From Microgenomates group bacterium (GTDB lineage: Bacteria > Patescibacteriota > Microgenomatia > UBA1400 > MFAQ01): a DNA stretch of 64,000 nt. The DNA is taken from assembly GCA_049303575.1 (NCBI GenBank), contig JBAQNH010000002.1, positions 180,717-244,716 on the forward strand, read 5' to 3'. The translations under genes were made by a program, and so were the position numbers. This document shows, one piece after another, positions 7,972-52,562 of this stretch. Under the pieces are notes generated by a model, which was given only the letters and a program-made list of their open reading frames with translations, was not told the DNA's origin and did no database searches. Position 1 is the first letter of the stretch, and each line of letters begins with the position of its first letter.

Positions 7972-8778
7972 ATGGAAATCTTTACCACTTACTTCTACCA
8001 ACCATTTTTCAATATTTTAGTTGGTCTTTACTGGCTAGTTGGACAAGTTTTACCCAATCCGGACATGGGCATCGCCGTTATTTTATTTGCCGTTTCCGTT
8101 CGCCTCATTCTCTTGCCTGTTGATCTGGCCGGCGACCGCTCCGCCGAGGACAAGTACGAAATTGCCAAAAAGATAAAACAATTAAAAAAGGATTTGGCTT
8201 CTGATCCAATTCGTCTTAAAGCCGAAACTCGTCGGATTATGCGTACTCGCCCCGGCGCCATTATCTCGGAAATCATCAATGTCGTCATCCAAGTCATGGT
8301 CATTCTCATGCTTTATCGTATTTTTACCACCGGCCTAGAAGGTGCCGATCTCCACTTGCTCTACAAATTCATGCCCAAGATTCAAACACCCATCGACCTT
8401 ATGTTTCTGGGAATATATGACCTATCTCACACCAATAGTTCCCTAAACGTCCTTCAGAGTTTAATGATTGCCGCCAACGAAGCTATGCACCTTTATTTTT
8501 CTCCGGTTAAACCCGACAAAAAAGACTTCGTTTCCCTGGTTATCATTTTTCCCATTTTTTGTTTTATCATTTTTATGTTCCTCCCTGCCGGCAAAAAGGT
8601 CTATATCATTACTTCAATTGCCTTCACGATGGTTGTCCGTTTAGTCAGACAGCTTCTCTATCTTTACTACTCTCTCTCCAAAAAAACAGCCCTCGAAACT
8701 GCCACGGACTCGTCTCCTGAGGCAGGAACCCCTCTTTCTTCATTGCCGACTCCAACTTCACCTGAAAAGACGATATAA
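7972..8778 (+). CDS. yidC: YidC/Oxa1-family membrane protein insertase (short Gram-positive type)
   Basis: FFNILVGLYWLVG...GIAVILFAVSVRLILLPV core and multiple TM segments, with a Ser/Pro/Thr-rich C-terminal tail. Confidence 0.75.
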   Translation: MEIFTTYFYQPFFNILVGLYWLVGQVLPNPDMGIAVILFAVSVRLILLPVDLAGDRSAEDKYEIAKKIKQLKKDLASDPIRLKAETRRIMRTRPGAIISEIINVVIQVMVILMLYRIFTTGLEGADLHLLYKFMPKIQTPIDLMFLGIYDLSHTNSSLNVLQSLMIAANEAMHLYFSPVKPDKKDFVSLVIIFPIFCFIIFMFLPAGKKVYIITSIAFTMVVRLVRQLLYLYYSLSKKTALETATDSSPEAGTPLSSLPTPTSPEKTI

Positions 8779-8789
8779 TATGGAAAGCT

Positions 8790-9401
8790 ATGGCAGATTT
8801 TGATAAATTGGTTGTTTCCTTCCTCGTTGACGAAATCGTCGGCGGTTTTTTCATTTCCGTTCCTCCAGGACACGTTGCCTGTGTTTATGATCGCGGACTC
8901 GGTGTTCTCAAGCGCGTTTGGGGTCCCGGACTTCATCTTAAGATTCCTTTTTGGCAAATAGCCAAACTTTTTAATGCTCAAATTCTTGAGTACACCATTC
9001 GCCACGGCTTTGATCTTTCTCAAAAAGAGTCTCTCGGTGATGAACCTATTACCGCTAACACCAAGGACAATAAAACCATCTCCATCGAAGGCTCGGTTCT
9101 TTTTAAGCTCGATAAAGCCAACGCCCCAGAGCTCTGGGAAAACATCGGCGACAACTTCATTTCCAAAGTTGTCCGTCCCTATTCCAGAAGTCGTATTTCT
9201 TCTGCTTTTAGTCAGTTTGATCACACCGAAATTGGTCCGGAACGAACTCAAATTGAAAACACCATCAAAAACGAACTGAACAAACTTTTTGAAGACAAAG
9301 GTCTCATCATTGAGAATGTTCTTTTTTCCGAAGTAAAAATTGTTGATACAGGCTCCAAACAGCCAGTTCAAACCATACTTTCTACCCCCGCGACCGTCTA
9401 G
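8790..9401 (+). CDS. SPFH/band-7 (prohibitin/stomatin-like) domain protein
   Basis: VPPGHVACVYDRGLGVLKRVWGPGLHLKIPFWQ is a typical SPFH-domain start. Confidence 0.6.
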   Translation: MADFDKLVVSFLVDEIVGGFFISVPPGHVACVYDRGLGVLKRVWGPGLHLKIPFWQIAKLFNAQILEYTIRHGFDLSQKESLGDEPITANTKDNKTISIEGSVLFKLDKANAPELWENIGDNFISKVVRPYSRSRISSAFSQFDHTEIGPERTQIENTIKNELNKLFEDKGLIIENVLFSEVKIVDTGSKQPVQTILSTPATV

Positions 9402-9420: not shown

Positions 9421-12400
9421 ATGGCCTTGCCCAAATATTCGGTACTGCAGATTCGTCCTGCCAAAGACTCACTCACTGGTCAGGCTGCCTTTGTTGAGTT
9501 TTTAGCCTCGATCAAGTCTTCTCTCAAGGCTGGTTTTATGGATAGGCTTCTCAGCTCCTACGAAACCATTACCTTAGAAATCGCCAATCTTAGTCAAACC
9601 ACTTACTTCATTATTGCTTGTCCGGAACGTCTGGAACACCTTGTTCGTTCTCAAATTGCCGCCCAGTATCCCACGGCTCTCATTACCCCCATGAAAGACT
9701 ATCTCGTCGACTGGTTGTCTCATGGTCAGCCTCAAATAGGTCAGTTGGTGCTCTCATCTCCCTCCCAACTTCCCCTCAACGTCACCGAAGATGAAAAAGT
9801 TGACCAAATGACCGCCATTCTCGGTAGTCTCTCACGTATTCCGTCAGGTCAGGCTGCCGTAATCCAAATTTGTCTCTTCGCCGCCCCTGGAAACTGGCAA
9901 AAATCTCTTCGTAAATCGCTCGAGCCTAGACCGGTTGCCGAAGGTGAAAAATCCCAACCTAGTGCCCAAAAACCCTTCATTGAAAAAAAACTTGCCTATC
10001 AAGCCTTTGGCTGTGATATTCGCCTTGCCGCCATTTCCCAGAATGAATCGAGTTCCAGACAACTTCTTTCTCAAATTTCTGCCGCTTTCGGTACCTATTC
10101 TCTTTCCGAAGGGAATAGCTTTAAGCTCAAAGTTGTCAAACCCTCCTCTCATAAAAAACTAAAAGAAATGATTGTCGAGCGTTCGGCTAAGTACTCTAAT
10201 CAGTACCAATATCTAAACTACGCCGAAATAGCCGCCATTTATCACTTGCCTGGTGTAAATCTCGCCAACATCAAAGGTATCGCTTGGGGAAAGACCTTAA
10301 GAGGGGAGCCACCAGCAAATCTCCCCATCGCCGAAGATCTTTCTGAAGAAGAGAAGCAAGATATTAATTTCTTTGCTAAAACGGAATACAAAAACAGAAT
10401 TGTCTCCTTTGGTATGAAAAAGGGGGAGGATCGTCGTCGTCACGTATATATCTTGGGTAAATCCGGTACTGGTAAATCAACCCTCCTGTCCAACATGGCC
10501 ATCAACGATATTCGTCATGGTGAAGGCATGGCATTAGTCGATCCTCACGGGGACACCGCCGAGCATCTCTTAGACTACATCCCCTCAGACAGAATTAATG
10601 ACGTCGCCTACCTCGATCCCTCCGTCGTTGGCAAATCTTTTCATCTCAATCCTCTCTATGTTAAAAATCCGGCTTACTCGGAACTAGTCGCCTCGGGCAT
10701 AGTTTCTATTTTTAGTAAACTCTACGGCAACTCCTGGGGTCCTCGTCTGGAATATATTTTAAGAAACACTCTCCTTACTCTCGTTGGTAAGCCGGGAGCG
10801 ACCCTTCTCGATGTTCCTCGACTCCTTACTAACAAGCCCTTTAGAGAAGAATATCTTTTGGCGGTTCAGGATCCGGTTCTCCATAACTTCTGGCACGACG
10901 AATACGACAAATACTCAGAAAAATTCCAATCCGAGGCTATTTCTCCCATTTTAAATAAAGTTGGCCAGTTCATTACCTCACCCACGATTAGAGATATCAT
11001 CAGCCATCCTACTTCTACCGTCGATTTTGAAGATCTCATGAACAACGGCAAAATTATTATTCTCAATCTTCCCCAAGGCAAGATTGGTGAAGATAATGCC
11101 GCTCTCCTGGGAGCCATGTTTATTTCCCAAATTCAGATCGCCGCCATGAATCGTGCCAATATGGCCGAGACGGAGCGTAAAGACTTCTTTCTTTATGTCG
11201 ATGAGTTTCAAAACTTTGCCACCACCTCTTTTATAAAAATTCTTTCCGAAGCTCGTAAATATCGTCTTAACCTTATTCTTGCTAATCAATACACCGCCCA
11301 GCTTCCGATAGAAATTCAAGACGCTATTTTTGGTAATGCTGGCACTCTCATAAGCTTTGTCGTTGGTGCTGCTGATGCTAATCGTCTCATGAATGAACTG
11401 GGAAACTTCTACACCCAAGATGATCTCGTTGGTCTTGCTCGTTACCAAATCATCGTCAAAATTTCTGTCAACGCCTCCATTTCCAATCCTTTCTCGGCCA
11501 CGACACTACCCCTTCCGGAAAACAAAGATAACAGCCGTCAAAAAATTGTCGCGGCCAGCGAAGAACAATACTATCGTAAAACCGAGGCTCTCGACATGGC
11601 TCAAGCCTCAATTTATGCTCCCAGTGCACCCCCCAAACCCCGCTCCTATTCTCCAACCACTCCTTATCGACCTCAGCAACAAACACCCTCTTCCTCTATT
11701 AATAAAAATGAAACAATAAAACCAAGCCCAACAGTTTTTTCAAAAGAACCCTCTTTGGAAGAACTGGACAAAGACAGAAGTGAAGGTCTTCGCCCTAGTG
11801 TTGTTGGTTGTTTCTTAAACTCCGGCAAAATTCTTTTCGTTTACCAAAAAATTCATCAACTCTGGCAACTACCGCAAGGGGGAGTGGATAATCGCGAGAC
11901 CACAATCGACGCTTTCAAACGTGAAATGACTGAAGAACTAGGTGAAGATTTTGTTAAACAGTCAAGTTTCAAACCCACTTTTTTTTCTGCCGACAAAATT
12001 GAGTTTCCTCCTGACAAACAGGGTTTGCGAGAACTTAAACTCGACTCCGGTAATCCGGTCAAAATGAAAGGTAAAAAATATTATTTTCTCTACGCCACTT
12101 CTTCATCTACCGATTTGAAATTTCCTTCAGATGAAGAATATAATGATTTCAAATGGGCAAATTACAGTGAAGCTTTGGAGCTAGCAAAAACTTCTACCCA
12201 AGGAGGTAAGCTTAGAATTACAACATCAGCACTAGATATTTTAAAAAACAAAGGCCTTCTTATTTCCGGAACCAATATTAATAATCAAAGCAACAACAAT
12301 GGATCCAGATCAAACTCCAAACCTCCAACCCAACCCACTCCCATCCGACGCCCCCCAAAACCAGACGTCAACCCCATTTTCTTCCCCGATAAGTCAGGAG

Positions 12401-12552
12401 ATAACCCCACCAGCAGCTTGGAGCAGCGACCAGACTCCACCGTTAGTGTCCTCGACACCCCCGACGAGTCCGGAGCCAATCTCCCCGCCAATGTACCAGG
12501 AGATACCCCCAAAATCACCCCTCCCGGTCAAGGGAATTCCCTCATCGTCTAA
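9421..12552 (+). CDS. TraD/VirD4-like (FtsK/HerA-superfamily) ATPase fused to a C-terminal NUDIX hydrolase domain, ending in a Pro/Ser-rich tail
   Basis: Walker A YILGKSGTGKSTLL followed by ALVDPHGD. Walker B FLYVDEFQNF and ARKYRLNLILANQ are coupling-protein-like. After a P/S linker comes the Nudix box GGVDNRETTIDAFKREMTEELGE. The start was moved to ATG 9421 (MALPKYSVLQ...); the track ORF began at 9340 with a non-ATG codon. Confidence 0.7.
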   Translation: MALPKYSVLQIRPAKDSLTGQAAFVEFLASIKSSLKAGFMDRLLSSYETITLEIANLSQTTYFIIACPERLEHLVRSQIAAQYPTALITPMKDYLVDWLSHGQPQIGQLVLSSPSQLPLNVTEDEKVDQMTAILGSLSRIPSGQAAVIQICLFAAPGNWQKSLRKSLEPRPVAEGEKSQPSAQKPFIEKKLAYQAFGCDIRLAAISQNESSSRQLLSQISAAFGTYSLSEGNSFKLKVVKPSSHKKLKEMIVERSAKYSNQYQYLNYAEIAAIYHLPGVNLANIKGIAWGKTLRGEPPANLPIAEDLSEEEKQDINFFAKTEYKNRIVSFGMKKGEDRRRHVYILGKSGTGKSTLLSNMAINDIRHGEGMALVDPHGDTAEHLLDYIPSDRINDVAYLDPSVVGKSFHLNPLYVKNPAYSELVASGIVSIFSKLYGNSWGPRLEYILRNTLLTLVGKPGATLLDVPRLLTNKPFREEYLLAVQDPVLHNFWHDEYDKYSEKFQSEAISPILNKVGQFITSPTIRDIISHPTSTVDFEDLMNNGKIIILNLPQGKIGEDNAALLGAMFISQIQIAAMNRANMAETERKDFFLYVDEFQNFATTSFIKILSEARKYRLNLILANQYTAQLPIEIQDAIFGNAGTLISFVVGAADANRLMNELGNFYTQDDLVGLARYQIIVKISVNASISNPFSATTLPLPENKDNSRQKIVAASEEQYYRKTEALDMAQASIYAPSAPPKPRSYSPTTPYRPQQQTPSSSINKNETIKPSPTVFSKEPSLEELDKDRSEGLRPSVVGCFLNSGKILFVYQKIHQLWQLPQGGVDNRETTIDAFKREMTEELGEDFVKQSSFKPTFFSADKIEFPPDKQGLRELKLDSGNPVKMKGKKYYFLYATSSSTDLKFPSDEEYNDFKWANYSEALELAKTSTQGGKLRITTSALDILKNKGLLISGTNINNQSNNNGSRSNSKPPTQPTPIRRPPKPDVNPIFFPDKSGDNPTSSLEQRPDSTVSVLDTPDESGANLPANVPGDTPKITPPGQGNSLIV

Positions 12553-12877
12553 AAAGTCTGGTTTTCTAAAAACTTTCTTTATTGTTATAGCCCTCGTTCT
12601 TTTCGGCATCTTCATCGGTGTTGTTGCCGCCCGTTTTCTCCCTATGCCTGGGACGGAAGTTCCCGTTGTTACCCCAACTCCGATAATTACTGTTACTCCC
12701 TCTCTTACTCCGGAGGTTACCCCAGTCTCTACCGCTTCGGCTAACTTTATTTGTCCAGCAAATGGCTGGGTAGACTGTATGCCAATACTTGACGAGGCAA
12801 AAACAATCTCTTGTTCTGCTGAAGCTATGGCTTGGTACAAAGTCAACTGTCCCAATTTTCAGGGAGCAGCTCTCTAG
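12299..12877 (+). CDS. Membrane-anchored hypothetical protein (Pro-rich N-terminus, one TM, Cys-containing ectodomain). Start uncertain; the 5' part overlaps the previous gene in another frame.
   Basis: LKTFFIVIALVLFGIFIGVVAARF TM helix, with 4 Cys in the C-terminal domain. An alternative start is ATG 12491 (MYQEIPPK...). Confidence 0.4.
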   Translation: MDPDQTPNLQPNPLPSDAPQNQTSTPFSSPISQEITPPAAWSSDQTPPLVSSTPPTSPEPISPPMYQEIPPKSPLPVKGIPSSSKKSGFLKTFFIVIALVLFGIFIGVVAARFLPMPGTEVPVVTPTPIITVTPSLTPEVTPVSTASANFICPANGWVDCMPILDEAKTISCSAEAMAWYKVNCPNFQGAAL

Positions 12878-14978: not shown

Positions 14979-15541
14979 ACCCCGTACAACCTACAACTGG
15001 AGCGAAGCGAAGTTGTACGGGGGTGAAGAGCACAGACTAACACACGAAGTGTGTTAATCTGTCATCATGGAAGCCAGAAGTTTGAATCACTCGGTTTACT
15101 ACCATCAGTATCACGTTGTGTGGGGTACGAAGTACAGGAGACAGTATCTCCAGGAGTACGTAAAGAAAGCCTTTGAAATATATGTCAAACGAGTAATATC
15201 TAAGTACCCCACAATTCAACTAATCAAGGTCAATACGGATATTGATCATGTTCATCTACAACTTTCAATACCGCCTAACATGGCTGTCTCACGGGTGGTG
15301 CAGAAGGTGAAACAGGAGACAAGTAAACTCCTCAAGAAAAGATTTAAGTTCATTCGAGAAATCTATCCCTTCGAGGGTATCTGGAGTGTTGGGTACTTCT
15401 CCTCAACCATCGGGCTGAATGAGGAAACTGTCACGCGGTATATCGACAGTCAAGGGAAGAGAGACAAGGGGAGACAGTACAAACTCTGGCTCCCATGATG
15501 CCGCCAAAGGAAACCCCGTACAAGCAAAGCGTAGTGCGGGG
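14979..15541 (+). mobile_element. IS200/IS605-family insertion sequence (tnpA only) with subterminal hairpins; boundaries approximate
   Basis: Left hairpin CCCCGTACAAC-(21 nt)-GTTGTACGGGG (14980-15022) and a second hairpin AACACAC-gaa-GTGTGTT (15038-15056) upstream of tnpA. Right hairpin CCCCGTAC-(9 nt)-GTAGTGCGGGG (15514-15541) downstream. Both ends share the CCCCGTACA arm, the arrangement expected for Y1-transposase IS. Confidence 0.65.
15067..15498 (+). CDS. tnpA: IS200/IS605-family Y1 (HUH) transposase TnpA
   Basis: 143 aa; YHQYHVVWGTKYRRQYL (IS200 N-terminal signature), HUH motif HVHLQLSIPP, catalytic-Tyr region GYFSSTIGLNEETVTRYIDSQ. Confidence 0.85.
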   Translation: MEARSLNHSVYYHQYHVVWGTKYRRQYLQEYVKKAFEIYVKRVISKYPTIQLIKVNTDIDHVHLQLSIPPNMAVSRVVQKVKQETSKLLKKRFKFIREIYPFEGIWSVGYFSSTIGLNEETVTRYIDSQGKRDKGRQYKLWLP

Positions 15542-18567: not shown

Positions 18568-19269
18568 TTATCCATTTCTATCAAGATATGCAGAATATTT
18601 ATCACATTTGTATTTCAAGAATGGGGCATGGATAATGTCTCGGTAAATAAATTCTGAAACCATGATCGCATTTCTCCAGTTATATCTCAGTTTATAGGCC
18701 CCGTATCCATAAGAGATCGAACTCTTGATTTCTGGAAAAACACTCATAATTTTTGTTGTTAATTGTTCAAGAAACATTTTACTTCCACTCGTAAAAATAA
18801 TATTCATCCTATTCTTCTTGTTTTTCTCAATGTTGATACACCCATCTCCGTCAAAATAGCCTCGAAGGAAATATTCAAAATATTTGTTAGGTATTTCCGG
18901 TAATTTGATGACTAACGATTTTCTTGGACACAATCCTATTTTAACCAGGTCATCATAAATTTTTTTGTTTCCTATTCTGACACGATACGATGTCTTACAC
19001 CAATATTCTTTCTCTCGAATTTTAATTTTTCGAGGACCTCTTTTCTGGATTATTTGCTTAGTAGACATGGCGGCCATCATATCTTTAAGAATATCTAAGT
19101 CGTTATTTGCTAACAATATATAGCATGCCCTCGAAGATTCTCTACAATCTTCAACTGCTCCATCAGCATAAATAAATCCCAAAACGTAAGCCATTTTTGG
19201 TGACCACTTTTTAAAAAAGTTTTCATCAACCTTTTTTCTGTTATATCCACCTCTTTTGTCTTGTTCCAC
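18568..19269 (-). CDS. LAGLIDADG-family homing endonuclease (two LAGLIDADG motifs), free-standing
   Basis: Motif 1 YVLGFIYADGAV and motif 2 FLRGYFDGDGCI. GTG start at 19269. Confidence 0.8.
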   Translation of the reverse strand: MEQDKRGGYNRKKVDENFFKKWSPKMAYVLGFIYADGAVEDCRESSRACYILLANNDLDILKDMMAAMSTKQIIQKRGPRKIKIREKEYWCKTSYRVRIGNKKIYDDLVKIGLCPRKSLVIKLPEIPNKYFEYFLRGYFDGDGCINIEKNKKNRMNIIFTSGSKMFLEQLTTKIMSVFPEIKSSISYGYGAYKLRYNWRNAIMVSEFIYRDIIHAPFLKYKCDKYSAYLDRNG

Positions 19270-31917: not shown

Positions 31918-32871
31918 ATGAATTCAATTCAGACTATTCAAGATACCTTCGATGTAAATGCAATTTATGCACATAAATTGCATAGTCTCACCAAAGGTGA
32001 TAATTATATTGAGGAAGTTAGAAGGACCATTAGCGAAAAACCAAAACCAATCGTCAAATGGGTCGGGGGAAAACGACAGTTATTGTCGCAATTTCGATTA
32101 TTAAACCTCTATCCCCCAAGTGGTTTCAACCCAAATAAATCTACATATTACGAACCGTTTGTTGGAGGCGCCGCCGTTTTTTTTGATCTTCTTCCAGAAA
32201 AAGCTTTCTTGTCAGATCTAAACAATGATCTAGTGATAACTTACAACGTAATAAAAAACGATGTTGATGAGCTGATCGATTCACTTAAAAAACACGTCTA
32301 TGAAAAAGAATATTTTCTTAGAGTTAGAAAACTCGACCCAAGGAAGCTATCGAAGATTGAAATTGCATCTCGTTTTATCTACTTAAATCGCACGTGTTTC
32401 AACGGTATGTATAGAGTAAACAAAAGTGGACAATTCAACGTTCCCTTCGGAAGATATTCAAACCCACAAATTTGTGATGAGCTCAATTTACGCAGGGCTT
32501 CAAAAGCTTTAAAAAACATTGAAATAAACTGTGAGGATTATAAAGAAGTATTAAATAAAGCCAAAAAAGGTGATTTTATTTATTTTGATCCACCATATTA
32601 CCCAATTAATTCCACGTCGTCATTTACTTCTTACACCCCTAACGCCTTTTTAGATAAAGAACAAATTGAGCTTCGGGAGACATTTGCACAGCTCAGCGAT
32701 AGAGGGTGTTACGTAATGCTTTCAAACTCAGACACTCCATTTATCAACAAAATATATTCTGAATTAAAAAATAAAGGAGTCAAAATAACAAAGATTCTAG
32801 CCGGAAGGGCAATCAACTCAAAGGCTTCGAGAAGAGGTAAAATTACCGAAGTGTTAATAACAAATTACTAA
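31918..32871 (+). CDS. Dam-family DNA N6-adenine methyltransferase (alpha class)
   Basis: KWVGGKRQLL (Dam motif I), PFVGGAAVFF, FIYFDPPYY (motif IV DPPY). It lies in an AT-rich block distinct from the flanks. Confidence 0.85.
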   Translation: MNSIQTIQDTFDVNAIYAHKLHSLTKGDNYIEEVRRTISEKPKPIVKWVGGKRQLLSQFRLLNLYPPSGFNPNKSTYYEPFVGGAAVFFDLLPEKAFLSDLNNDLVITYNVIKNDVDELIDSLKKHVYEKEYFLRVRKLDPRKLSKIEIASRFIYLNRTCFNGMYRVNKSGQFNVPFGRYSNPQICDELNLRRASKALKNIEINCEDYKEVLNKAKKGDFIYFDPPYYPINSTSSFTSYTPNAFLDKEQIELRETFAQLSDRGCYVMLSNSDTPFINKIYSELKNKGVKITKILAGRAINSKASRRGKITEVLITNY

Positions 32872-32884
32872 AAATACAAAATAA

Positions 32885-33406
32885 ATGATTACAAACGGAT
32901 TTGGAGGAGGAAATACAATTACCGGTTTAAACTTCGAAAAAGAAACAGACATACTTAGTTTGTTGAAAACTAAGAGAGACTACTCCGTTGCCGACAATAT
33001 TATTTATTTTAAAAAGAAAGAAGTAGCAAAAAGTTTCAAAAAGCATGCATTGTATCCTTTTTTAAAAACAAAAGGTGTCGATTATAAGAAAATAATTTCA
33101 AAAAAATTATTACCTGATGAAGCAATTTATGTAATTGTGAACAACACACTTTTTGTAATTGAAGTAAAGTTTCAAAAAGTCGCAGGGTCAGTCGATGAAA
33201 AATTACAAACATGTGACTTTAAAAGGAAGCAGTATGCAAAACTGATGGCACCATTAAATATTGAGGTTGAATATATCTATATTCTTAGCGATTGGTTTAG
33301 AAAATCAGAATACAAAGATGTGTTGGATTATATAATTTCAGTTGGCTGTCAGTATTATTTTCAATATCTACCATTACAAAAGTTGGGACTTCCTATCCCT
33401 GAATAA
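32885..33406 (+). CDS. Small PD-(D/E)XK nuclease-fold protein (candidate restriction endonuclease subunit)
   Basis: ...KGVDYKKIISKKLLPDEAIYVIVNNTLFVIEVKFQK...: a D...(D/E)-x-K arrangement like Hjc/REase catalytic cores. 173 aa. Confidence 0.45.
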   Translation: MITNGFGGGNTITGLNFEKETDILSLLKTKRDYSVADNIIYFKKKEVAKSFKKHALYPFLKTKGVDYKKIISKKLLPDEAIYVIVNNTLFVIEVKFQKVAGSVDEKLQTCDFKRKQYAKLMAPLNIEVEYIYILSDWFRKSEYKDVLDYIISVGCQYYFQYLPLQKLGLPIPE

Positions 33407-33431
33407 AGTCAGATTACTATTATTATCAGTA

Positions 33432-34190
33432 TTGATTAAAAAAGACATTGTACTTAATCCAGATGAGTTTGAATTGGAATGCACATCTGTGTGGGCATTC
33501 CCTCGAAGAGGAAATTGGGCAACACACACTTCTGACTGGCGAGGAAATTGGGCTCCAGAAGTAGCTAGAAATTTAATACTACGCTACACATCAGAAAATG
33601 ATTGGTTGCTTGATCCGATGGTGGGAGGTGGTACTTCCGCGATAGAAGCCAAGATTCTTAATAGACACATTATTTGCACGGATATTAACGAATTAGCTCT
33701 TATAAGAACAAAGAAATCGCTTGAATTTGATGCAAAAAACAATGCAGAGCAAAGGTTATATAAGTGTGATGCTCGAGACCTGAAAAAAATAAGTAACGGG
33801 AAAATTGACTTTGTATTAACCCATCCACCTTACGTTGATATCATCAAATACAGTGAAGGAAACATAGAAGAAGATCTTTCAAATATCCACGACTTAGATA
33901 TTTTCGCAAATGAAATGAAAAAAGTTGCAGATGAACTTTATAGGGTCCTTAAAAATGGAAAATACTGTGCAATTTTAATCGGTGATACTAGAAGAAATAA
34001 AATGTATCAACCCCTTGCCTTTAAGGTTATGGAAAGATTTATTAATGCCGGTTTTGTATTGAAAGAAGACATAATAAAAAGGCAGTTTAATTGCAAAGCA
34101 ACTGGGTTTTGGGTAAACAAATCAAAACTAAACAACTTCCTGTTAATTATGCACGAACATTTATTCGTATTTCAAAAACCTACTGTTTAG
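33432..34190 (+). CDS. SAM-dependent DNA methyltransferase (N6-adenine/N4-cytosine type; motif I before motif IV). Start uncertain: TTG 33432 or TTG 33342.
   Basis: Motif I LDPMVGGGTSAIEAKILNRHIICTDINE and motif IV FVLTHPPYVD. No in-frame ATG near the 5' end; the track ORF begins at TTG 33342 and would overlap the upstream gene by 64 nt. Confidence 0.6.
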   Translation: MIKKDIVLNPDEFELECTSVWAFPRRGNWATHTSDWRGNWAPEVARNLILRYTSENDWLLDPMVGGGTSAIEAKILNRHIICTDINELALIRTKKSLEFDAKNNAEQRLYKCDARDLKKISNGKIDFVLTHPPYVDIIKYSEGNIEEDLSNIHDLDIFANEMKKVADELYRVLKNGKYCAILIGDTRRNKMYQPLAFKVMERFINAGFVLKEDIIKRQFNCKATGFWVNKSKLNNFLLIMHEHLFVFQKPTV

Positions 34191-34194
34191 AAAA

Positions 34195-34647
34195 ATGAAT
34201 AAGCTGTTAACAGAAGATTTTGTCCAAAATAATATAATTAAATATCTTTCCAGAACTGGATGGAGTAAAAGCTTGAAATCGAAAACACTTAAGGAACACG
34301 GAGTTGATATTAAGGTCAGGAACAACAATTTTGCAAGATATTGGCTGATCGAAGTCAAGGGTGATGCAAGCGAAACAGCGAAATATCCTAGATCTCATAG
34401 AGAAGTAAACTTTAATCTCGCCTTGGGGCAAATTATCACCCGTATGCAATCGAACGGAACAAGGGGTTATAAATACAGGTATAAATATGGTGTGGGGTAC
34501 CCAACTTCATTTAAAAATCTAATTGTTCGAAGATTACCTTATGATGTGTGCGACAAACTAAATCTTTATATATTTTTAGTTGACGAAACTGGAGAAGTTG
34601 AGCTGCTCGATTGGAAAGGATTAAAGAAAATCCAATCTTCTCATTAG
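34195..34647 (+). CDS. Small Hjc-like PD-(D/E)XK nuclease-fold protein (candidate second restriction endonuclease subunit)
   Basis: ...LKEHGVDIKVRNNNFARYWLIEVKGD... closely resembles the Hjc/archaeal-resolvase and REase core (VDxx...IEVK). 150 aa. Confidence 0.45.
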   Translation: MNKLLTEDFVQNNIIKYLSRTGWSKSLKSKTLKEHGVDIKVRNNNFARYWLIEVKGDASETAKYPRSHREVNFNLALGQIITRMQSNGTRGYKYRYKYGVGYPTSFKNLIVRRLPYDVCDKLNLYIFLVDETGEVELLDWKGLKKIQSSH

Positions 34648-35146: not shown

Positions 35147-35785
35147 TTATTCTTTTACAACCTTCTTCTTAGCCACTTTAGCCTTTTTAGGCTTAGCTAC
35201 TTCTTTTCCGGAAGTCATTTCAATAGTCTCAAGAATTTTTTCCGTCATATTCTTCGGTTCGGTAGGAGTCAAAAGCTTTATGATTTTGTCCAGTTTGGCG
35301 TTTAGTTCACTCAAATCCATATTTCCGGCTGCCGGTCTTTGGGAAGGAGCAAAAGATCTGGACTCACCTCTTCCACCGTCTTTTTTGGCAAAACAATCAC
35401 TACAAAGTACCGGTTTACCGTTTCTTGGTTCAAAAGGAACCTGACAATTGTCTCCACACTCATCACAAATAGCACTAAACATGGGTTTATCAAATCTGTT
35501 TCTGTCTCCAAACCCTCTGTCATTGCCTCTACTTTCGAATCTGTTTCCGCCTCTGGGTTCTTCGCCATTCATTTCACCAAAACACTTACTGCAGAAAACT
35601 TCTTTTCTACCATTAGGCTTGAAAGGAACCTGGCAACTGGAACCACATTTGGCGCACACGGCGTCAAACATTTCCTTTCGCTCGGAACCTCTGTCGTTTC
35701 CGCCTCTTGAGCCGAAACTACCCTCTCTTGGGCTGTAATACTGGCTTCTACTGTCTCCACTTCCACCTCGGTTAAAATATGTCAT
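35147..35785 (-). CDS. Protein with two CxxC-x17-CxxC zinc-ribbon repeats, an RGG/Gly-Arg-rich N-terminus and a Lys-rich C-terminus
   Basis: Repeat 1 CAKCGSSCQVPFKPNGRKEVFCSKCF and repeat 2 CDECGDNCQVPFEPRNGKPVLCSDCF. N-terminal ...NRGGSGDSRSQYYSPREGSFGSRGGNDRGSERK..., C-terminal ...KPKKAKVAKKKVVKE. Confidence 0.6.
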   Translation of the reverse strand: MTYFNRGGSGDSRSQYYSPREGSFGSRGGNDRGSERKEMFDAVCAKCGSSCQVPFKPNGRKEVFCSKCFGEMNGEEPRGGNRFESRGNDRGFGDRNRFDKPMFSAICDECGDNCQVPFEPRNGKPVLCSDCFAKKDGGRGESRSFAPSQRPAAGNMDLSELNAKLDKIIKLLTPTEPKNMTEKILETIEMTSGKEVAKPKKAKVAKKKVVKE

Positions 35786-47520: not shown

Positions 47521-48897
47521 TTACAAGGCTAACAAGATTCCTACAATCGCGAGTAATAGTCCTCCACCAAAGGCTGCGATCCCGGGAAGATCAAAGATAC
47601 CAGCTTCTGGAAGAATTGTCGGTGTGGGTGTTGTTGTTACCACCGCTACAACTGTTTGCGTCGGTGTTGGTACGGATACCGTCGGCGCGGAAGTGACCAC
47701 AACTGTTTGCGTCGTGGCTGCACAGGTACAATCATCTTCAGCTGTACAGGCTGCGGTTCGACATTTACTCGTTGTAGTGTCACAGGTTAGTCCGGTTGTA
47801 CACTCGGCGTTGGTGGTACAGGTATTGTTACATCCAACTACTGTGCTCACAGTTAGATCCTTAACGAGACTCAGTGTTCCACCCGGGAATGTCACTTTTC
47901 CCGTATTAGTAATTACCGTACCGTTAGCAACTCCCTCACTAGCCTTTACTCTGAAGTTAAACTTCTTTGTTTCAGCAGGACTAATTGTTGTATTACATGT
48001 TAGTTCCGTATCTGTTGCACTCCAAGTACATCCGGCACTGGCGTCCATAAATGTGACCGGCATATCTTTCAACGAGTCTTTAATCACGACACTGGTAGCA
48101 TTTGCCGTACCCGTATTTGTCAGTGAAATTGAATAAACGTATATTTGGCTCTTAGACACGGTACTCATCTCGGACGTCAGTGTATAAGTTCCAGCCACAT
48201 TTTCCGTCTCGTTTTTAAAGGCGGTCTTGCTTCCTGAGAGAGTTATGACAACCGGAGGTTCAACCCTTAAGCTATTTAGCCCTGTAAAAGTCTGGCTACC
48301 CAAAGTAGCAATCGCCGCGTTATCAATAGTAGAAGCTAGTGTAAAATCACCCGTTACCTTTACCCTGAAATACTTTTCTATACTTTGTCCGGCTGTAAGG
48401 TTGAAAGCGGTGCAACTATATTTTCTTGTCGCAGCATCAAAACTACAACTTTGATTGGCTGGTGAGTCAACGAAAGTTAGCTTGTCTAAGTTTCCCCCCA
48501 TCAGAGTATCACTCAAAACCACCCCACTTACAGGATCAGCTCCGATGTTTTTTACTTGAATTCGGTATACAAAAGTAGCTCCCATCGTCGCCATATCTGT
48601 GTCAGTTCTTATGGTGTAACCTTCAGTTTTTGCAGCATCATCTACGTATGTCGAGGCTTTCTTCACCACGGTTACGTTCGTCTCTGCTGCCGTTGCTGTT
48701 CCGGTCACTGTACAGGCAGGGTCACCAACCCACTGAGTTCCGATTGGTGTTATTTCTGCTGCTGCGGGTTCACTCTCTGGCGCAGTCGGAGCCACGGCTT
48801 CTCGAGTAGAAAGCTGAGTTGCCACGTAAATCGAAGCGCCTCCAAGAAGAATCACAATTAGTACAAGGGCAATGGCTAGTATTTTTTTCTTATTCAT
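47521..48897 (-). CDS. Cell-surface protein with N-terminal TM anchor, DUF11-like beta domains, Cys-rich region and C-terminal LPEAG + TM sorting-like signal
   Basis: N-terminal ILAIALVLIVILLGG then YVATQLSTREAVAPTAPESEP. C-terminal ...TPTILPEAGIFDLPGIAAFGGGLLLAIVGILLAL. Confidence 0.6.
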   Translation of the reverse strand: MNKKKILAIALVLIVILLGGASIYVATQLSTREAVAPTAPESEPAAAEITPIGTQWVGDPACTVTGTATAAETNVTVVKKASTYVDDAAKTEGYTIRTDTDMATMGATFVYRIQVKNIGADPVSGVVLSDTLMGGNLDKLTFVDSPANQSCSFDAATRKYSCTAFNLTAGQSIEKYFRVKVTGDFTLASTIDNAAIATLGSQTFTGLNSLRVEPPVVITLSGSKTAFKNETENVAGTYTLTSEMSTVSKSQIYVYSISLTNTGTANATSVVIKDSLKDMPVTFMDASAGCTWSATDTELTCNTTISPAETKKFNFRVKASEGVANGTVITNTGKVTFPGGTLSLVKDLTVSTVVGCNNTCTTNAECTTGLTCDTTTSKCRTAACTAEDDCTCAATTQTVVVTSAPTVSVPTPTQTVVAVVTTTPTPTILPEAGIFDLPGIAAFGGGLLLAIVGILLAL

Positions 48898-48902
48898 TTA
48901 TC

Positions 48903-50795
48903 TTATGGTGTGGTACTAACTTGTGCTTCAAACTGATAACTTCCGGGTGATCCAACTAGATAATCTGAGTAACTTGATACCTTTGCTACGGTTGAACTTG
49001 CAGACATCCAGTTTCCAGGAATGTTATTTACATGTACTCTAAACTGTGCCCTCAAATTATCAAGACTTCCTGTTACTGAGAATTTGAGCAAGTCACCCAC
49101 CTTTAAACTTTGTAGTTGAGTCGCGGTTAGTGGTGTGGCTGGATATACTCCGTTTACGGCCTTGTAAATCTTGACATTTACACACGCTCCTACAACTGGT
49201 GTTGTTGGCGTTGTCGCTTTATATCCAACTACGACGTCAAAATCGTTAAAGTCATAGTTTGCATCCAACTGTCCTCTGGTATCGTTGTCAGCTCCTTGAA
49301 TTGTATCCGCCCAACACTGGAATGGTGAACTAATTCCTGCTGTCGTAGAAATTCCAAAGCTGCTTAATGCCGATGGTGTTATCCTCGAACTGATATCTCT
49401 TAACTCGCCATATCTTCGACAACTTCCTCCAGAAGGATTAATATAGCCCAAGGAGTTTGTTGTTTCGTTTCCCAACTTTATGGTAACTGTATAAGTTCCC
49501 GGTTGGATCACTGCATCAAAATTATTGTCGTCAACTTTTGTTATGGCTGCACTGGTTCCGGTTCCAGCCAAGGTAACCGTTGTTCCGGCACTTGCTCCTG
49601 TAAGGTGAATACGTACTGTTCCTGCCGTTGTGAAGTTTATGGTGTTAATTTTGCTTCTGTCTGGATTACAAATCAGCTGGTTCTCTTGGCTACTCGTTGC
49701 CCCCGCTATATATGTATATGACACACACACATCAGTTCCACCAACAGGAGCTGTTGGTGCTGCTGTCGTGGTTGGAGCAGCCGTTGGAGCAGCTGTTGGT
49801 GCTGCTGTCGTGGTTGGAGCAGCCGTTGCTGTTGGCACTACCGGAGTACACGAACCCCATTCTCCGCAAGCTGGCTTTGATGCAATTCCTAATGAAATAC
49901 AAGTTCTTGTACCAGCCACTCCCGCGATACCGGAAGTACAACCAGATGTCTGAGCGGTTACACACTCACAAGCTTGTGTCGGTGTTGGTGTTGATGCGGC
50001 AGCACAGCTACTATTGTCTACACAATTTGAAGAGGGACAAGCTTGGGTATAACCAACTGTTGTCGTTGTTGTAGCACAAACGCTTCCGGAACAATTACGA
50101 ACGGTACAAGTTTTTGTAGTAGGAGTAGCTGTTGGTGTTGGTTGGGTAGTACAAGTCGCATCTGGAGTACAGTAATAACCTGCAAAAGAAGTCCCTGGAG
50201 CCTGAACTTTACACCTTTCACCTGTTTGACAGCCTGCTGCAACTCCACACGTTCCCTCTTTGTCGGCGGCACATCTACTGCCAGCCAAAGGTTCACTCTC
50301 TGGTGCTGTTGGAGCTATTGCCTGCCTTGTCGATAATTGATTGGAAACATAGTAAGCCGCTCCGGCTACACCAACAACCAGTAGCAAAGCCACAATACCT
50401 CCAATAATTGGAAACATCTTTTTCTTGGGGCTTTCTGCCGGCATTGATACTTCTTCTGGAGCAGGTGTCGGTGCCGAAAAAGGTTCCGGTGAAGGAATGG
50501 TTGTTGTTGTGGTCGTGGTTGTAATTGGTTCCGATTGGGGAGTAGGTGTGGGCAAAGATTCTGGACTTGGCCACGGCGTTATTGGAGCCGTTTCGGCTGG
50601 TGGGGTCATCGTTTCGGCGGGAGTTACTGCAGTTTGTTCAACGGGAGTAACTGGTTCAGTATAAGTTGTTGTCGTTGTCGTCGTTACTGGAGTCGGGGTC
50701 GGGGATTCGACGGGAGTTATGTCTTCGGCCACCTCGGGGGTAACCGGAGTCGTACCCGAAACCAAAGGCTGATTAATTTTATTTTGATCGTCCAT
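48903..50795 (-). CDS. Thr/Pro-rich, Cys-rich cell-surface protein with internal TM anchor
   Basis: About 130-aa T/P-rich N-terminus, TM (MFPIIGGIVALLLVVGVAGAAYYV), then SNQLSTRQAIAPTAPESEP (shared with the previous gene), a Cys-rich module, TAAPT tandem repeats and beta-rich C-terminal domains. Confidence 0.6.
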   Translation of the reverse strand: MDDQNKINQPLVSGTTPVTPEVAEDITPVESPTPTPVTTTTTTTYTEPVTPVEQTAVTPAETMTPPAETAPITPWPSPESLPTPTPQSEPITTTTTTTTIPSPEPFSAPTPAPEEVSMPAESPKKKMFPIIGGIVALLLVVGVAGAAYYVSNQLSTRQAIAPTAPESEPLAGSRCAADKEGTCGVAAGCQTGERCKVQAPGTSFAGYYCTPDATCTTQPTPTATPTTKTCTVRNCSGSVCATTTTTVGYTQACPSSNCVDNSSCAAASTPTPTQACECVTAQTSGCTSGIAGVAGTRTCISLGIASKPACGEWGSCTPVVPTATAAPTTTAAPTAAPTAAPTTTAAPTAPVGGTDVCVSYTYIAGATSSQENQLICNPDRSKINTINFTTAGTVRIHLTGASAGTTVTLAGTGTSAAITKVDDNNFDAVIQPGTYTVTIKLGNETTNSLGYINPSGGSCRRYGELRDISSRITPSALSSFGISTTAGISSPFQCWADTIQGADNDTRGQLDANYDFNDFDVVVGYKATTPTTPVVGACVNVKIYKAVNGVYPATPLTATQLQSLKVGDLLKFSVTGSLDNLRAQFRVHVNNIPGNWMSASSTVAKVSSYSDYLVGSPGSYQFEAQVSTTP

Positions 50796-50857
50796 GCGTT
50801 TAAGTACGGTCCATTAAAGAGGGCCTGTCTACACTATAAAGAAGTTTTGGTAATTTA

Positions 50858-52243: not shown

Positions 52244-52562
52244 TTATTTGTATTTGTGTTGTTGCCGAACCTGTAGACTCCGGTACTACTGGTTCGGTTG
52301 TCTCGGTTATCTCGGGCGTTGGGGTAGTAATCAATAGTAACCCCATCTCGGCTTCGGTATATACAGTTCTCTTTTCGAGATTGTCGATTACTGTTTGGTT
52401 GATTGCACCATCTAAAGATTTAATTGCTTTTGCTTGCTGTGTTGTCGTCTGACTTTTTACTGAGGCGGAGTAGATCTGGTAAGCCACTATTCCACCCACA
52501 ATAGATAGTCCCATTACTCCTACCAATAATATATAAGAAGATAGCGTTCTGGTTGCTTTCAT
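52236..52562 (-). CDS. Small membrane-anchored hypothetical protein in the pilNO operon
   Basis: N-terminal TM (YILLVGVMGLSIVGGIVAY) and a Thr/Pro-rich C-terminus. Confidence 0.4.
   Translation of the reverse strand: MKATRTLSSYILLVGVMGLSIVGGIVAYQIYSASVKSQTTTQQAKAIKSLDGAINQTVIDNLEKRTVYTEAEMGLLLITTPTPEITETTEPVVPESTGSATTQIQISE

What the first reader, a model, noticed from the sequence alone, without database searches (positions are those of the whole stretch)
9421..12552. In-frame fusion of a TraD/VirD4-like coupling-type ATPase with a NUDIX hydrolase domain, next to an SPFH protein
One uninterrupted 1043-codon ORF combines three parts. The first is an unassigned roughly 330-aa N-terminal domain. 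The second is a conjugative coupling-protein-like P-loop ATPase with Walker A GKSGTGKST followed by ALVDPHGD, Walker B FLYVDEFQNF, and ARKYRLNLILANQ. The third, after a Pro/Ser-rich linker, is a complete Nudix box, GGVDNRETTIDAFKREMTEELGE, within a roughly 150-aa NUDIX fold. The ORF ends in a P/S/T-rich tail. DNA or nucleoprotein translocase ATPases fused to a nucleotide-pyrophosphatase domain are not a standard architecture. NUDIX domains occur in some anti-phage and NAD/nucleotide-signalling contexts, and the gene sits beside an SPFH/band-7 scaffold gene and yidC, so this protein plausibly acts at the membrane. The function is open; candidates include DNA uptake or secretion, nucleotide second-messenger turnover, or defence.
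Basis: partly seen in the sequence, partly recalled or inferred. Interest (0 to 1): 0.65.

Follow-up and report, generated by a model that had tools for sequence, protein, structure and literature searches.

The report
Secretion-type ATPase fused to NUDIX hydrolase
A Collierbacteria (candidate phyla radiation) chromosome encodes a real, conserved 1043-residue protein that joins a type IV secretion-style motor ATPase to an RppH-like NUDIX hydrolase on a flexible leash, which gives a testable hint that the thousands of "orphan" coupling-protein ATPases of these bacteria handle nucleic acids.

Summary
ORF 9421-12552(+) is uninterrupted, and every quoted motif is present.

The fusion is not an assembly artefact. 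The exact protein is in NCBI. About 100 sequence clusters from independent assemblies keep the same architecture down to 48% identity. The NUDIX domain is conserved like a folded domain, while the linker and tail are not.

Anatomy:
- **aa 1-310:** DUF8128. Two fold-search methods match it to the N-terminal domain of VirB4/TrwK.
- **aa 336-728:** a VirD4/TrwB-type P-loop ATPase with an all-alpha insert. No transmembrane helix is predicted.
- **aa 729-772:** disordered linker.
- **aa 775-950:** NUDIX domain with a canonical Nudix box. Its best structural match is E. coli RppH.
- **aa 951-1043:** disordered tail.

The protein belongs to the very large family of Patescibacteria "orphan" T4CP-like ATPases, whose function is unknown in the literature. 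Orthologues at the same locus carry an S1 RNA-binding domain or nothing in place of NUDIX. More distant relatives carry treble-clef zinc fingers in long disordered tails.

The YidC/SPFH adjacency is real but limited to the Collierbacteria clade. No T4SS, relaxase or defence genes lie in the window.

My best reading is a ring motor for single-stranded nucleic acid with a tethered 5'-end or nucleotide pyrophosphohydrolase. The architecture is shown; the mechanism is inferred. I rate it a new variant of a known kind.

The parts
9421..12552 (+). Whole gene: 1043-aa DUF8128 / T4CP-like ATPase / NUDIX fusion protein
   Evidence: The identical protein, P0001, is in NCBI as 'NUDIX domain-containing protein [Microgenomates group bacterium]'.
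9421..10350 (+). aa 1-310: DUF8128 (PF26449), an alpha/beta N-terminal domain with a VirB4 N-terminal-domain-like fold
10351..10425 (+). aa 311-335: neck beta-hairpin joining the N-terminal domain to the ATPase. Just upstream lie the family-invariant HLP (275-277) and EPPxNLP (296-302) motifs.
   Evidence: Alignment A2 invariant columns; secondary structure.
10426..11604 (+). aa 336-728: VirD4/TrwB-type (FtsK-HerA superfamily) P-loop ATPase domain
10456..10482 (+). Walker A motif GKSGTGKST (aa 346-354). K352 is invariant in 150 family representatives.
10669..11043 (+). aa 417-541: all-alpha insertion in the ATPase domain, in the position of the AAD of coupling proteins
   Evidence: Eight helices in the AF2 model. 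The TrwB alignment covers 360 of 420 residues.
11185..11217 (+). Walker B motif FFLYVDEFQNF (aa 589-599). D594 and E595 are nearly invariant.
11251..11289 (+). ARKYRLNLILANQ (aa 611-623). R612 and Q623 are nearly invariant. This is a T4CP-type motif shared with F TraD (EARKFGG...GIQSYAQL).
11605..11736 (+). aa 729-772: disordered Pro/Ser/Thr-rich linker
   Evidence: pLDDT below 50; composition; 21% mean identity among homologues. This is the site of the frameshift in allele L087.
11743..12270 (+). aa 775-950: NUDIX hydrolase domain, NudH/RppH-like
11878..11946 (+). Nudix box GGVDNRETTIDAFKREMTEELGE (aa 820-842), a full match to GX5EX7REUXEEXGU
   Evidence: It is strictly canonical in most of the nearest relatives (32 of P0001-P0032, 75-100% identity; P0022 and P0026 carry substitutions in the EE pair). 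The EE pair is kept in most others, and the box is degenerate in a few.
12271..12549 (+). aa 951-1043: disordered Pro/Ser/Asn/Thr-rich C-terminal tail ending ...PPGQGNSLIV
   Evidence: pLDDT about 30; 13% mean identity. Distant relatives end their tails with PG[QE]x[IV]x[FL] (19 of 88) or PEDLLxxIL (5 of 88).
8790..9401 (+). Upstream SPFH/Band_7 gene (203 aa), 19 nt from the target. The adjacency is specific to the clade.
   Evidence: Pfam 8e-25; neighbourhood test.
7972..8778 (+). YidC (60KD_IMP) gene in the same tightly spaced gene string (gaps of 3, 11, 11 and 19 nt from the SBP gene onward)
12299..12877 (+). Downstream ORF for a small protein with one hydrophobic helix and a Cys-rich C-terminus. 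As listed, it overlaps the 3' end of the target. Its true start is uncertain, and whether it belongs to the system is unknown.
   Evidence: sequence; no Pfam hit.

Best explanation
**Identity (shown).** This is a chromosomal, Collierbacteria-clade member of the very large Patescibacteria family of "orphan" type IV coupling-protein-like ATPases.
- The N-terminal DUF8128 domain has the fold of the VirB4 N-terminal domain.
- The engine is a VirD4/TrwB-type P-loop ATPase with intact Walker A, Walker B, arginine and glutamine motifs and an all-alpha insert.
- No transmembrane anchor is predicted.
- A linker of about 45 disordered residues tethers a complete NudH/RppH-like NUDIX hydrolase.
- A disordered tail of about 90 residues follows.

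**Mechanism (inferred).** Like its relatives, the ATPase probably forms a ring that uses ATP to engage or thread a single-stranded nucleic acid or a nucleoprotein substrate.

The C-terminal extension probably serves as the substrate-handling arm, as the C-terminal tails of TraD, VirD4 and DotL do. In this family the arm carries interchangeable nucleic-acid modules: S1, treble-clef zinc fingers, and here NUDIX.

The tethered NUDIX would hydrolyse a pyrophosphate linkage at the 5' end of the engaged strand. That could be 5'-triphosphate to monophosphate, or removal of an NpnN-type cap, as RppH does. Alternatively it could act on a nucleotide released at or bound to the motor.

The gene sits among housekeeping genes and is probably co-transcribed with yidC and an SPFH gene. 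It therefore looks like a cellular function, not a mobile-element or defence function.
For: **Fusion real and conserved:**

**N-terminal domain matches the VirB4 NTD:**

**ATPase is T4CP-type:**
- Family and sequence hits.
- Relatives pass the TrwB_AAD_bind, TraG-D_C and T4SS-DNA_transf gathering cut-offs.
- Catalytic residues are nearly invariant across 150 representatives.

**NUDIX looks active and RppH-like:**
- The Nudix box is canonical.
- The best sequence models are RppH and Ap4A hydrolase.
- It is conserved at 56% mean identity, against 13-21% for the flanking disordered segments.

**The tail acts as a modular nucleic-acid arm:**
- The orthologue at the same locus (YidC, Band_7, gene, GroES/EL) carries an S1 RNA-binding domain in place of NUDIX (P0116; S1 confirmed on P0121 and P0219).
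- Another orthologue carries nothing (P0106).
- Of 88 tails from family representatives, 13 hold a zf_Tbcl_2 zinc finger and one holds a PD-(D/E)xK-like segment. The rest are long disordered tails.
- The same zinc finger occurs twice in an RGG-rich, Lys-rich small protein of this window.

**Housekeeping context, with no T4SS, relaxase or ATPase paralogue in the 64 kb:**

**Literature:** 5,713 VirD4-type homologues were found in 2,918 Patescibacteria genomes, and only 148 lie near virB4. The gene was non-essential in S. epibionticum, and the authors say exaptation "cannot be ruled out" (PMC12102498).
Against: - No biochemical data exist for any member of the family.
- The nucleic-acid substrate is inferred only from homology and from the tail modules of relatives.
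- S1 and zinc-finger modules do not discriminate between RNA and ssDNA.
- The NUDIX domain scores far below every RppH equivalog cut-off (35 bits against 116-259), so its substrate is open.
- Many orthologues lack any module. Some NUDIX copies have degenerate boxes (P0091, P0101, P0103, P0105), so the module is dispensable for the core function.
- The AF2 model gives no reliable inter-domain geometry (pTM 0.54).
- DUF8128 shows no sequence-level similarity to F TraC, a VirB4 homologue (hhalign probability 0.1). Common descent with the VirB4 N-terminal domain therefore rests on fold and domain order.
Confidence: 0.5

Rival explanations
1. It is a genuine type IV coupling protein. It works in trans with the Patescibacteria T4SS, which is encoded elsewhere on the 704-kb contig, and delivers substrates to the host bacterium. 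The VirB4-like N-terminal domain replaces the usual transmembrane anchor by docking on VirB3/VirB8-like partners. The NUDIX domain prepares the cargo or is itself delivered.
For: - The ATPase is T4CP-type by sequence.
- The N-terminal domain has the fold that VirB4 uses to sit on the inner-membrane complex.
- About 7 of 46 relatives carry a hydrophobic insertion in DUF8128, near query positions 170-185, which could bind the membrane.
- t4cp genes are often encoded far from virB4 (PMC12102498).
Against: - No T4SS gene is present in the window.
- None appeared among the recurrent neighbours of 80 related loci.
- Only 148 of 5,713 Patescibacteria t4cp homologues lie near virB4. The t4cp of S. epibionticum is not essential, although the T4SS is.
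- The query lacks both the transmembrane helices and the hydrophobic insertion.
- The tail modules are nucleic-acid binders, not effector-recognition modules.
Confidence: 0.2
2. The NUDIX domain is a free-nucleotide enzyme. Candidate activities are Ap4A or NpnN hydrolase, house-cleaning NTP pyrophosphatase, or an alarmone or second-messenger hydrolase. It would be fused to the motor only for co-localisation or regulation, and would not act on the translocated polymer. For example, it could clear an inhibitory nucleotide near the ATPase or tune ATPase activity.
For: - The best PDB sequence hit is a plant Ap4A hydrolase.
- Ap4A hydrolases, NudI and DDP1 are close structural matches.
- The RppH equivalog cut-offs are not met.
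- The fusion is restricted to one clade and has been lost repeatedly, as expected for an accessory regulator.
Against: - At the orthologous position the module is replaced by S1, a polymer-binding domain.
- The top structural match is RppH, with almost full-length coverage.
- A long flexible tether is more typical of an enzyme that reaches a substrate held by the core.
Confidence: 0.2
3. It is an immunity or defence device: either an anti-phage system, or a Pif-like conjugal-immunity function that pairs a NUDIX hydrolase with an FtsK/HerA-type translocase.
For: - PADLOC mad8 (MADS system) matches the ATPase region at E 5e-18, and HerA defence models match weakly.
- Actinomycete ICEs pair NUDIX proteins (Pif of pSAM2, conjugal immunity) with FtsK-like transfer ATPases (PMC3218068).
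- Homologues occur in Bacillus phages.
Against: - The strong hits cover only the shared P-loop domain; the one other PADLOC hit, NUDIX region to candidate family PDC-S07, is weak (E 2.4e-5).
- No other MADS, Dnd or defence component lies nearby.
- The gene sits in a conserved housekeeping string (ValRS, TsaD..., YidC..., GroES/EL) in every Collierbacteria-level locus examined. It is not in a variable island.
- The family is near-universal in Patescibacteria, unlike patchy defence genes.
Confidence: 0.07
4. The fusion is an assembly or frameshift artefact that joins two separate genes.
For: One 97%-identical contig (L087, P0031) has the reading frame broken in the linker, with the NUDIX part continuing in the +1 frame.
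Against: 102 of the 120 nearest clusters, from independent projects and assemblers, keep the in-frame fusion across 48-100% identity. Three GTDB species representatives (L007-L009) also encode it in one frame.
Confidence: 0.02

Closest known systems
Type IV coupling proteins (VirD4/TrwB/TraD; Pfam TrwB_AAD_bind, T4SS-DNA_transf, TraG-D_C)
   Different: There is no N-terminal transmembrane domain; a 310-aa soluble VirB4-NTD-like domain takes its place. The gene is not linked to a relaxase or T4SS genes. It is chromosomal and sits among housekeeping genes. The C-terminal arm carries an enzyme.
VirB4/TrwK/TraC ATPases of type IV secretion systems
   Different: There is no sequence-level match to VirB4 models (TIGR00929 scores 15 bits against a 643-bit cut-off; not found; hhalign to F TraC is negative). 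No VirB3, VirB6 or VirB8 neighbours are present.
Patescibacteria 'orphan' T4CP homologues (Quinonero-Coronel et al. 2025, PMC12102498)
   Same: This is the same family. It is widespread in Patescibacteria, rarely lies next to virB4, and has no known function.
   Different: Within the passages I read (text search for VirD4, coupling protein, T4CP and Microgenomat-, plus section 14), that paper does not describe the DUF8128/VirB4-like N-terminal domain, the disordered modular tails, or the NUDIX fusion of the Collierbacteria clade.
RppH/NudH RNA pyrophosphohydrolases and Ap4A hydrolases (NUDIX)
   Same: The Nudix fold and canonical box are present. E. coli RppH is the best structural match, with 147 of 158 residues aligned. 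RppH and Ap4A hydrolase are the best sequence matches.
   Different: It is fused to a motor ATPase. It scores far below the RppH equivalog cut-offs. Its substrate has not been tested.
Pif NUDIX protein plus TraSA FtsK-like translocase of actinomycete ICE pSAM2
   Same: A NUDIX hydrolase is functionally associated with an FtsK-HerA-superfamily DNA-transfer ATPase (PMC3218068).
   Different: There the two are separate genes on a mobile element, the ATPase branch is different (FtsK/SpoIIIE), and the role is conjugal immunity. Here it is a single polypeptide in a core chromosomal locus.
Bacillus phage proteins of phrog_5156 (phage G gp156; 0105phi7-2 gp32 'DNA helicase or translocase'; D6E ORF23)
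   Same: They share the DUF8128-like region plus the T4CP-like ATPase. phrog_5156 matches aa 188-722 at E 1e-77. tblastn to phage G covers aa 49-725 at 24.7% identity.
   Different: They are phage-encoded and lie near partition and lysogeny genes. They have no NUDIX domain, and their function is also unknown.

Membership tests
Type IV coupling protein (VirD4/TrwB/TraD) | FtsK-HerA-type nucleotide-binding domain with Walker A, Walker B and the T4CP-type EARK...Q motif | tested here: met
   [not shown]
Type IV coupling protein (VirD4/TrwB/TraD) | All-alpha domain inserted in the nucleotide-binding domain | tested here: met
   A helical block spans aa 417-541 in the AF2 model. 360 of 420 residues of TrwB-deltaN70 align.
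Type IV coupling protein (VirD4/TrwB/TraD) | N-terminal transmembrane anchor | tested here: not met
   The maximum 19-residue Kyte-Doolittle hydropathy is 1.37, and that window lies inside the ATPase. The N-terminus is a soluble alpha/beta domain.
Type IV coupling protein (VirD4/TrwB/TraD) | Curated profile cut-offs (Pfam TrwB_AAD_bind, T4SS-DNA_transf; NCBIfam TraD/VirD4 models) | tested here: inconclusive
   The query scores 20.3 against 20.5 for TrwB_AAD_bind and 20.9 against 22 for TraG-D_C. NCBIfam T4CP models are far below their cut-offs. Family relatives pass the Pfam cut-offs.
Type IV coupling protein (VirD4/TrwB/TraD) | Genetic linkage to a relaxase and/or mating-pair-formation genes | tested here: not met
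   None are present in the 64-kb window, and none appear among recurrent neighbours of 80 related loci. The rest of the genome was not seen.
VirB4 (TrwK/TraC/CagE) | VirB4-type N-terminal domain followed by a TrwB-like C-terminal ATPase domain | tested here: met
   [not shown]
VirB4 (TrwK/TraC/CagE) | Sequence membership (TIGR00929 / CagE_TrbE_VirB profiles) | tested here: not met
   TIGR00929 scores 15.4 bits against a 643-bit cut-off. No VirB4 chain appears in the profile search of PDB sequences. hhalign of DUF8128 against F TraC gives probability 0.1.
NUDIX hydrolase superfamily | Nudix fold with the GX5EX7REUXEEXGU box | tested here: met
   [not shown]
RppH (RNA pyrophosphohydrolase) orthologue | Equivalog-level sequence score; RNA 5'-end pyrophosphohydrolase activity | tested here: not met
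   NCBIfam RppH models are the best hits but score 27-35 bits against cut-offs of 116-259. Enzymatic activity cannot be tested with these tools. The structural resemblance is the highest among NUDIX structures.
Anti-phage defence system (MADS mad8, HerA-based systems, Dnd/Dpt) | Presence of the other system components in the neighbourhood | tested here: not met
   The strong PADLOC hits (mad8, HerA) cover only the ATPase region, and the NUDIX region hits candidate family PDC-S07 only weakly. The neighbours are SBP, YidC, SPFH, GroES/EL and similar genes.
SPFH-associated membrane complex | Conserved adjacency of the ATPase gene to the SPFH gene across lineages | tested here: not met
   The adjacency occurs only in Collierbacteria-level loci L001-L009. 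It is absent in L010 (Shapirobacteria) and in the other loci, apart from a truncated weak SPFH hit at the edge of L032.

The most novel reading that the evidence does not exclude
The DUF8128/T4CP-like ATPases could be a Patescibacteria-wide housekeeping motor, exapted from type IV secretion ATPases, that acts on RNA or on imported single-stranded nucleic acid. It could be a degradosome-like or salvage machine in organisms that cannot synthesise nucleotides. On this reading the disordered C-terminal arm recruits or processes the polymer, and the Collierbacteria version has built in its own RppH-type 5'-end pyrophosphohydrolase. That would be the first RNA-directed, or housekeeping, role for the VirB4/VirD4 ATPase clade.
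Probability: 0.2. Interest if true: 0.85.

Novelty: new variant of a known kind. Interest (0 to 1): 0.55.

Why it matters
Patescibacteria genomes hold thousands of VirD4-like ATPase genes, about two per genome, that are unlinked to secretion systems and have no known role (PMC12102498).

This locus gives that question experimental handles:
- **Architecture.** These proteins pair a VirB4-like N-terminal domain with a coupling-protein engine.
- **Variable arm.** Their long disordered C-terminal arms carry interchangeable nucleic-acid modules.
- **A known enzyme class.** In one clade the module is an enzyme of a well-studied class with simple assays.

If the NUDIX domain acts on the 5' end of RNA or DNA held by the motor, it would identify the substrate class for the whole family. 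It would also link the secretion-ATPase lineage to nucleic-acid handling in ultra-small symbiotic bacteria.

If the NUDIX domain is instead only a co-localised nucleotide hydrolase, the finding is a curiosity of domain shuffling.

Tried and rejected
- **Frameshift artefact:** rejected on conservation. The one broken allele is noted.
- **SPFH/YidC functional linkage:** the neighbourhood test across 86 loci shows clade-restricted synteny.
- **Universal neighbour:** all-vs-all clustering of ORFs from 80 loci gave only lineage synteny, such as a TopA-like gene in 20 loci.
- **Is the stand-alone DUF8128 gene adjacent to an NTD-less ATPase?** Not in L005/L006.
- **Sequence-level link of DUF8128 to VirB4:** hhalign against F TraC was negative. 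The R388 record was not in the collections.
- **Profile search with the DUF8128 alignment:** it returned only 32 proteins because of the word index.
- **Promoter and terminator scan of 5.5-13.4 kb:** not above shuffled expectation.
- **Zinc-finger module against PDB sequences:** no meaningful hit.
- **afdb50 fold library:** unavailable.
- **Literature searches:** PF26449 and DUF8128 returned nothing. 'Nudix' plus 'VirD4' found no description of such a fusion.
- **Second NUDIX gene or ATPase paralogue in the window:** none found.
- **Not used:** the third large protein search and the metagenome scan, because they would not have changed the verdict.

Full report
**1. Observation.**

The ORF at 9421-12552(+) is real and uninterrupted, with 1043 codons.

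Pfam places a NUDIX domain at aa 792-921, scoring 41.2 bits against a gathering score of 21.1. It places a DUF87/HerA-type P-loop region at aa 339-552, scoring 24.7 against 23.2. TrwB_AAD_bind and TraG-D_C fall just under threshold. NCBIfam's best models are RppH for the C-terminal part and VirD4/TraD-like models for the middle, all far below equivalog cut-offs.

The upstream genes are a solute-binding protein, a weak nucleotidyltransferase-like ORF, YidC and a 203-aa SPFH/Band_7 protein. GroES and GroEL lie downstream. Composition and gene content, together with the names attached to identical and near-identical proteins, place the window in a Microgenomates/Collierbacteria (Patescibacteria, CPR) chromosome.

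**2. The fusion is genuine.**

The exact protein is in NCBI on a 704-kb contig. 102 of the 120 nearest 90%-identity clusters carry the NUDIX region in frame, at 48-100% identity. These come from NCBI, JGI, ENA and Logan assemblies.

Region by region, mean identity to the query is 80% for the ATPase, 65% for the N-terminal domain and 56% for NUDIX. It is only 21% for the linker and 13% for the tail. The NUDIX part therefore evolves as a constrained folded domain between two fast-evolving disordered segments.

The Nudix box is strictly canonical in most of the query's nearest relatives. The catalytic EE pair is kept in most others, and the box is degenerate in a few.

One 97%-identical contig (L087) has a frameshift inside the linker, with the NUDIX part continuing in the +1 frame. 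That is either a sequencing error or a rare split allele. Reads for the present window could not be checked.

**3. Anatomy.**

A full-length AlphaFold2 model has mean pLDDT 81.5. It is confident for aa 1-728 and 775-950, and disordered (pLDDT about 30) for aa 729-772 and 951-1043.

*N-terminal domain (aa 1-310).* Precomputed annotations call it PF26449/DUF8128. Modelled alone it has pLDDT 89.8 and pTM 0.83.
- No TrwB, HerA or VirB4-CTD-only chain appears in that list, so the match is to the VirB4 N-terminal domain.
- Foldseek agrees independently: its top nine hits are all TrwK chains, with E from 9e-8 to 1e-4.
- At sequence level the similarity is not detectable (hhalign against F TraC).

*ATPase (aa 336-728).*
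- By sequence it is closest to coupling proteins. TrwB and DotL are the only strong PDB hits for the family profile, and VirB4 is absent.
- hhalign aligns it to F TraD from the Walker A motif to the characteristic EARK(Y/F)...Q..AQL motif.
- Relatives pass the TrwB_AAD_bind, TraG-D_C and T4SS-DNA_transf cut-offs.
- K352, D594, E595, R612 and Q623 are invariant or nearly so in 150 representatives.
- No transmembrane helix is predicted.

**4. The family.**

A full scan of 1.84 billion representatives with aa 1-760 finds 21,735 hits at E of 1e-3 or better, and 6,114 at 1e-30 or better. A scan of GTDB species genomes returned at least 600 loci. These span Collier-, Shapiro-, Roizman-, Ames-, Dojka-, Peregrini-, Magasanik-, Doudna-, Nomura- and Falkowbacteria as well as Saccharibacteria.

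This matches the literature. Quinonero-Coronel et al. [quoted passage not shown] The gene was non-essential in S. epibionticum, and the authors state that exaptation cannot be ruled out.

Two architectures occur among representatives:
- DUF8128 plus ATPase.
- ATPase-only proteins with long tails, alongside stand-alone DUF8128 proteins of 410-474 aa.

In one case the stand-alone DUF8128 gene is not next to an ATPase gene. Many relatives carry a 40-70 aa hydrophobic or amphipathic insertion in DUF8128 that the query clade lacks.

Related proteins also occur in Bacillus phages. phrog_5156 matches at E 1e-77, and other examples are phage G gp156, 0105phi7-2 gp32 and D6E ORF23. These genes lie near partition and lysogeny genes.

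**5. The C-terminal arm is modular.**

Among the 88 tails of at least 80 aa that lack the query-type NUDIX module (85 family representatives plus four near homologues), most are long, low-complexity and disordered. Several carry small embedded modules:
- S1 RNA-binding domains.
- The treble-clef zinc finger zf_Tbcl_2, in 13 tails.
- A Y[KR]E..GG.KWY motif, in 7 tails.
- One PD-(D/E)xK-like segment.
- Conserved extreme C-terminal peptides: PG[QE]x[IV]x[FL] in 19 tails and PEDLLxxIL in 5.

Only the query's own cluster among these representatives has NUDIX. Only three GTDB loci, L007-L009, match beyond residue 950.

At the orthologous locus (YidC, Band_7, gene, GroES/EL), different Collierbacteria-level genomes carry NUDIX, S1 or nothing. 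A neighbour-joining tree of the core shows NUDIX throughout the crown clade, and a basal grade that mixes NUDIX, S1 and no module.

The same zinc finger occurs twice in an RGG- and Lys-rich small protein elsewhere in this window. That fits a nucleic-acid-binding role for the module.

**6. Neighbourhood.**

The YidC and SPFH adjacency, with its tight spacing of 3, 11, 11 and 19 nt, holds in all Collierbacteria-level loci. It disappears in Shapirobacteria, which keep ValRS, TsaD, SBP, the gene and GroES/EL. It is absent in about 70 other loci. No other neighbour is universal.

The window contains no virB4, relaxase, second copy of the ATPase, second NUDIX gene or defence cluster. The promoter and terminator scans were uninformative.

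**7. Interpretation.**

*Shown:* the protein is a conserved single polypeptide. It combines a VirB4-NTD-like domain, a T4CP-type ATPase with an all-alpha insert, and an RppH-like NUDIX domain on a disordered tether. It is encoded in a housekeeping context.

*Inferred:*
- It forms a ring like its relatives.
- It engages a single-stranded nucleic acid or a nucleoprotein.
- The C-terminal arm is the substrate-handling element, by analogy with the tails of TraD, VirD4 and DotL and from the S1 and zinc-finger modules of orthologues.
- The NUDIX domain cleaves a 5' pyrophosphate linkage of that substrate.

*Rivals:*
- A true coupling protein acting in trans with the T4SS.
- A free-nucleotide NUDIX fused for regulation.
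- A defence or conjugal-immunity role. The Pif/TraSA precedent in actinomycete ICEs is relevant here.
- An assembly artefact.

The data cannot distinguish RNA from ssDNA, nor polymer ends from free nucleotides.

**8. Novelty and score.**

The family and its puzzling abundance are known, and the fused protein is already deposited under a generic name. I found none of the following in the searched literature:
- The NUDIX fusion.
- The VirB4-like nature of DUF8128.
- The interchangeable nucleic-acid modules on the disordered arm.

I rate it a new variant of a known kind, with interest 0.55. It is not categorically new, but it turns an open question, what the orphan T4CP-like ATPases of CPR bacteria do, into a set of simple assays.

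Noticed in passing
window 35147-35785 (-): A 212-aa protein with an RGG/GSRGG-rich N-terminus, two copies of the treble-clef zinc finger PF23477 (E 8e-32) and a Lys-rich C-terminus. The same zinc-finger type is embedded in the disordered tails of distant relatives of the target ATPase. It is likely a nucleic-acid-binding module.
   Followed up: partly
window 31918-34647 (+): A low-GC island (GC 0.34 against about 0.42). It holds a D12-class N6-adenine methyltransferase (31918-32871), a second DNA methylase (33342-34190, N6_N4_Mtase) and a small ORF with a weak NOV_C hit. It is probably an acquired restriction-modification island.
   Followed up: partly
window 15067-15498 (+): An IS200/IS605-type Y1 transposase lies between groEL and the M23 peptidase gene. 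It is absent at this position in the syntenic locus L001.
   Followed up: partly
window 18568-19269 (-): A free-standing LAGLIDADG homing-endonuclease-like ORF (PF14528, 2e-12) lies just after the GAPDH gene.
   Followed up: partly
window 47521-53763 (-): A string of genes: a PilN-like protein, two small membrane proteins, and three large surface-type proteins (DUF11/DUF7619, Big_13/fn3). It looks like a type IV pilus-associated or cell-surface cluster. It is not a T4SS.
   Followed up: partly
L087 6100-6938 (relative of the target, 97% identical): The reading frame of the orthologue is broken inside the disordered linker, and the NUDIX part continues in the +1 frame. This is either a sequencing error or a natural split allele.
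   Followed up: yes
L005 7001-8329 and L006 3569-4897 (Paceibacteria-type contigs): Stand-alone DUF8128 proteins of about 440 aa are encoded between a sigma-70 gene and yceG/mltG, with no ATPase gene within 7 kb. The VirB4-NTD-like domain therefore also exists as a separate protein, possibly analogous to TrsD.
   Followed up: partly
Relatives P0133-P0265 (alignment A2, columns about 215-290): Many DUF8128 domains carry a 40-70 aa hydrophobic or amphipathic insertion at the position of the query's hydrophilic loop (aa about 165-185). It may be a membrane-binding element that was lost in the Collierbacteria clade.
   Followed up: partly
Tails of family representatives (e.g. P0175, P0194, P0212, P0253): The disordered tails end in conserved short peptides at the extreme C-terminus: PG[QE]x[IV]x[FL] in 19 of 88 and PEDLLxxIL in 5 of 88. 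These look like docking motifs for an unknown partner.
   Followed up: no
[not shown]
   Followed up: no
window 12299-12877 (+): The downstream ORF overlaps the last 254 nt of the target in another frame. It has a Pro-rich N-terminus, one hydrophobic helix and a Cys-rich C-terminus, with no Pfam hit. Its true start and its relation to the target are unknown.
   Followed up: no
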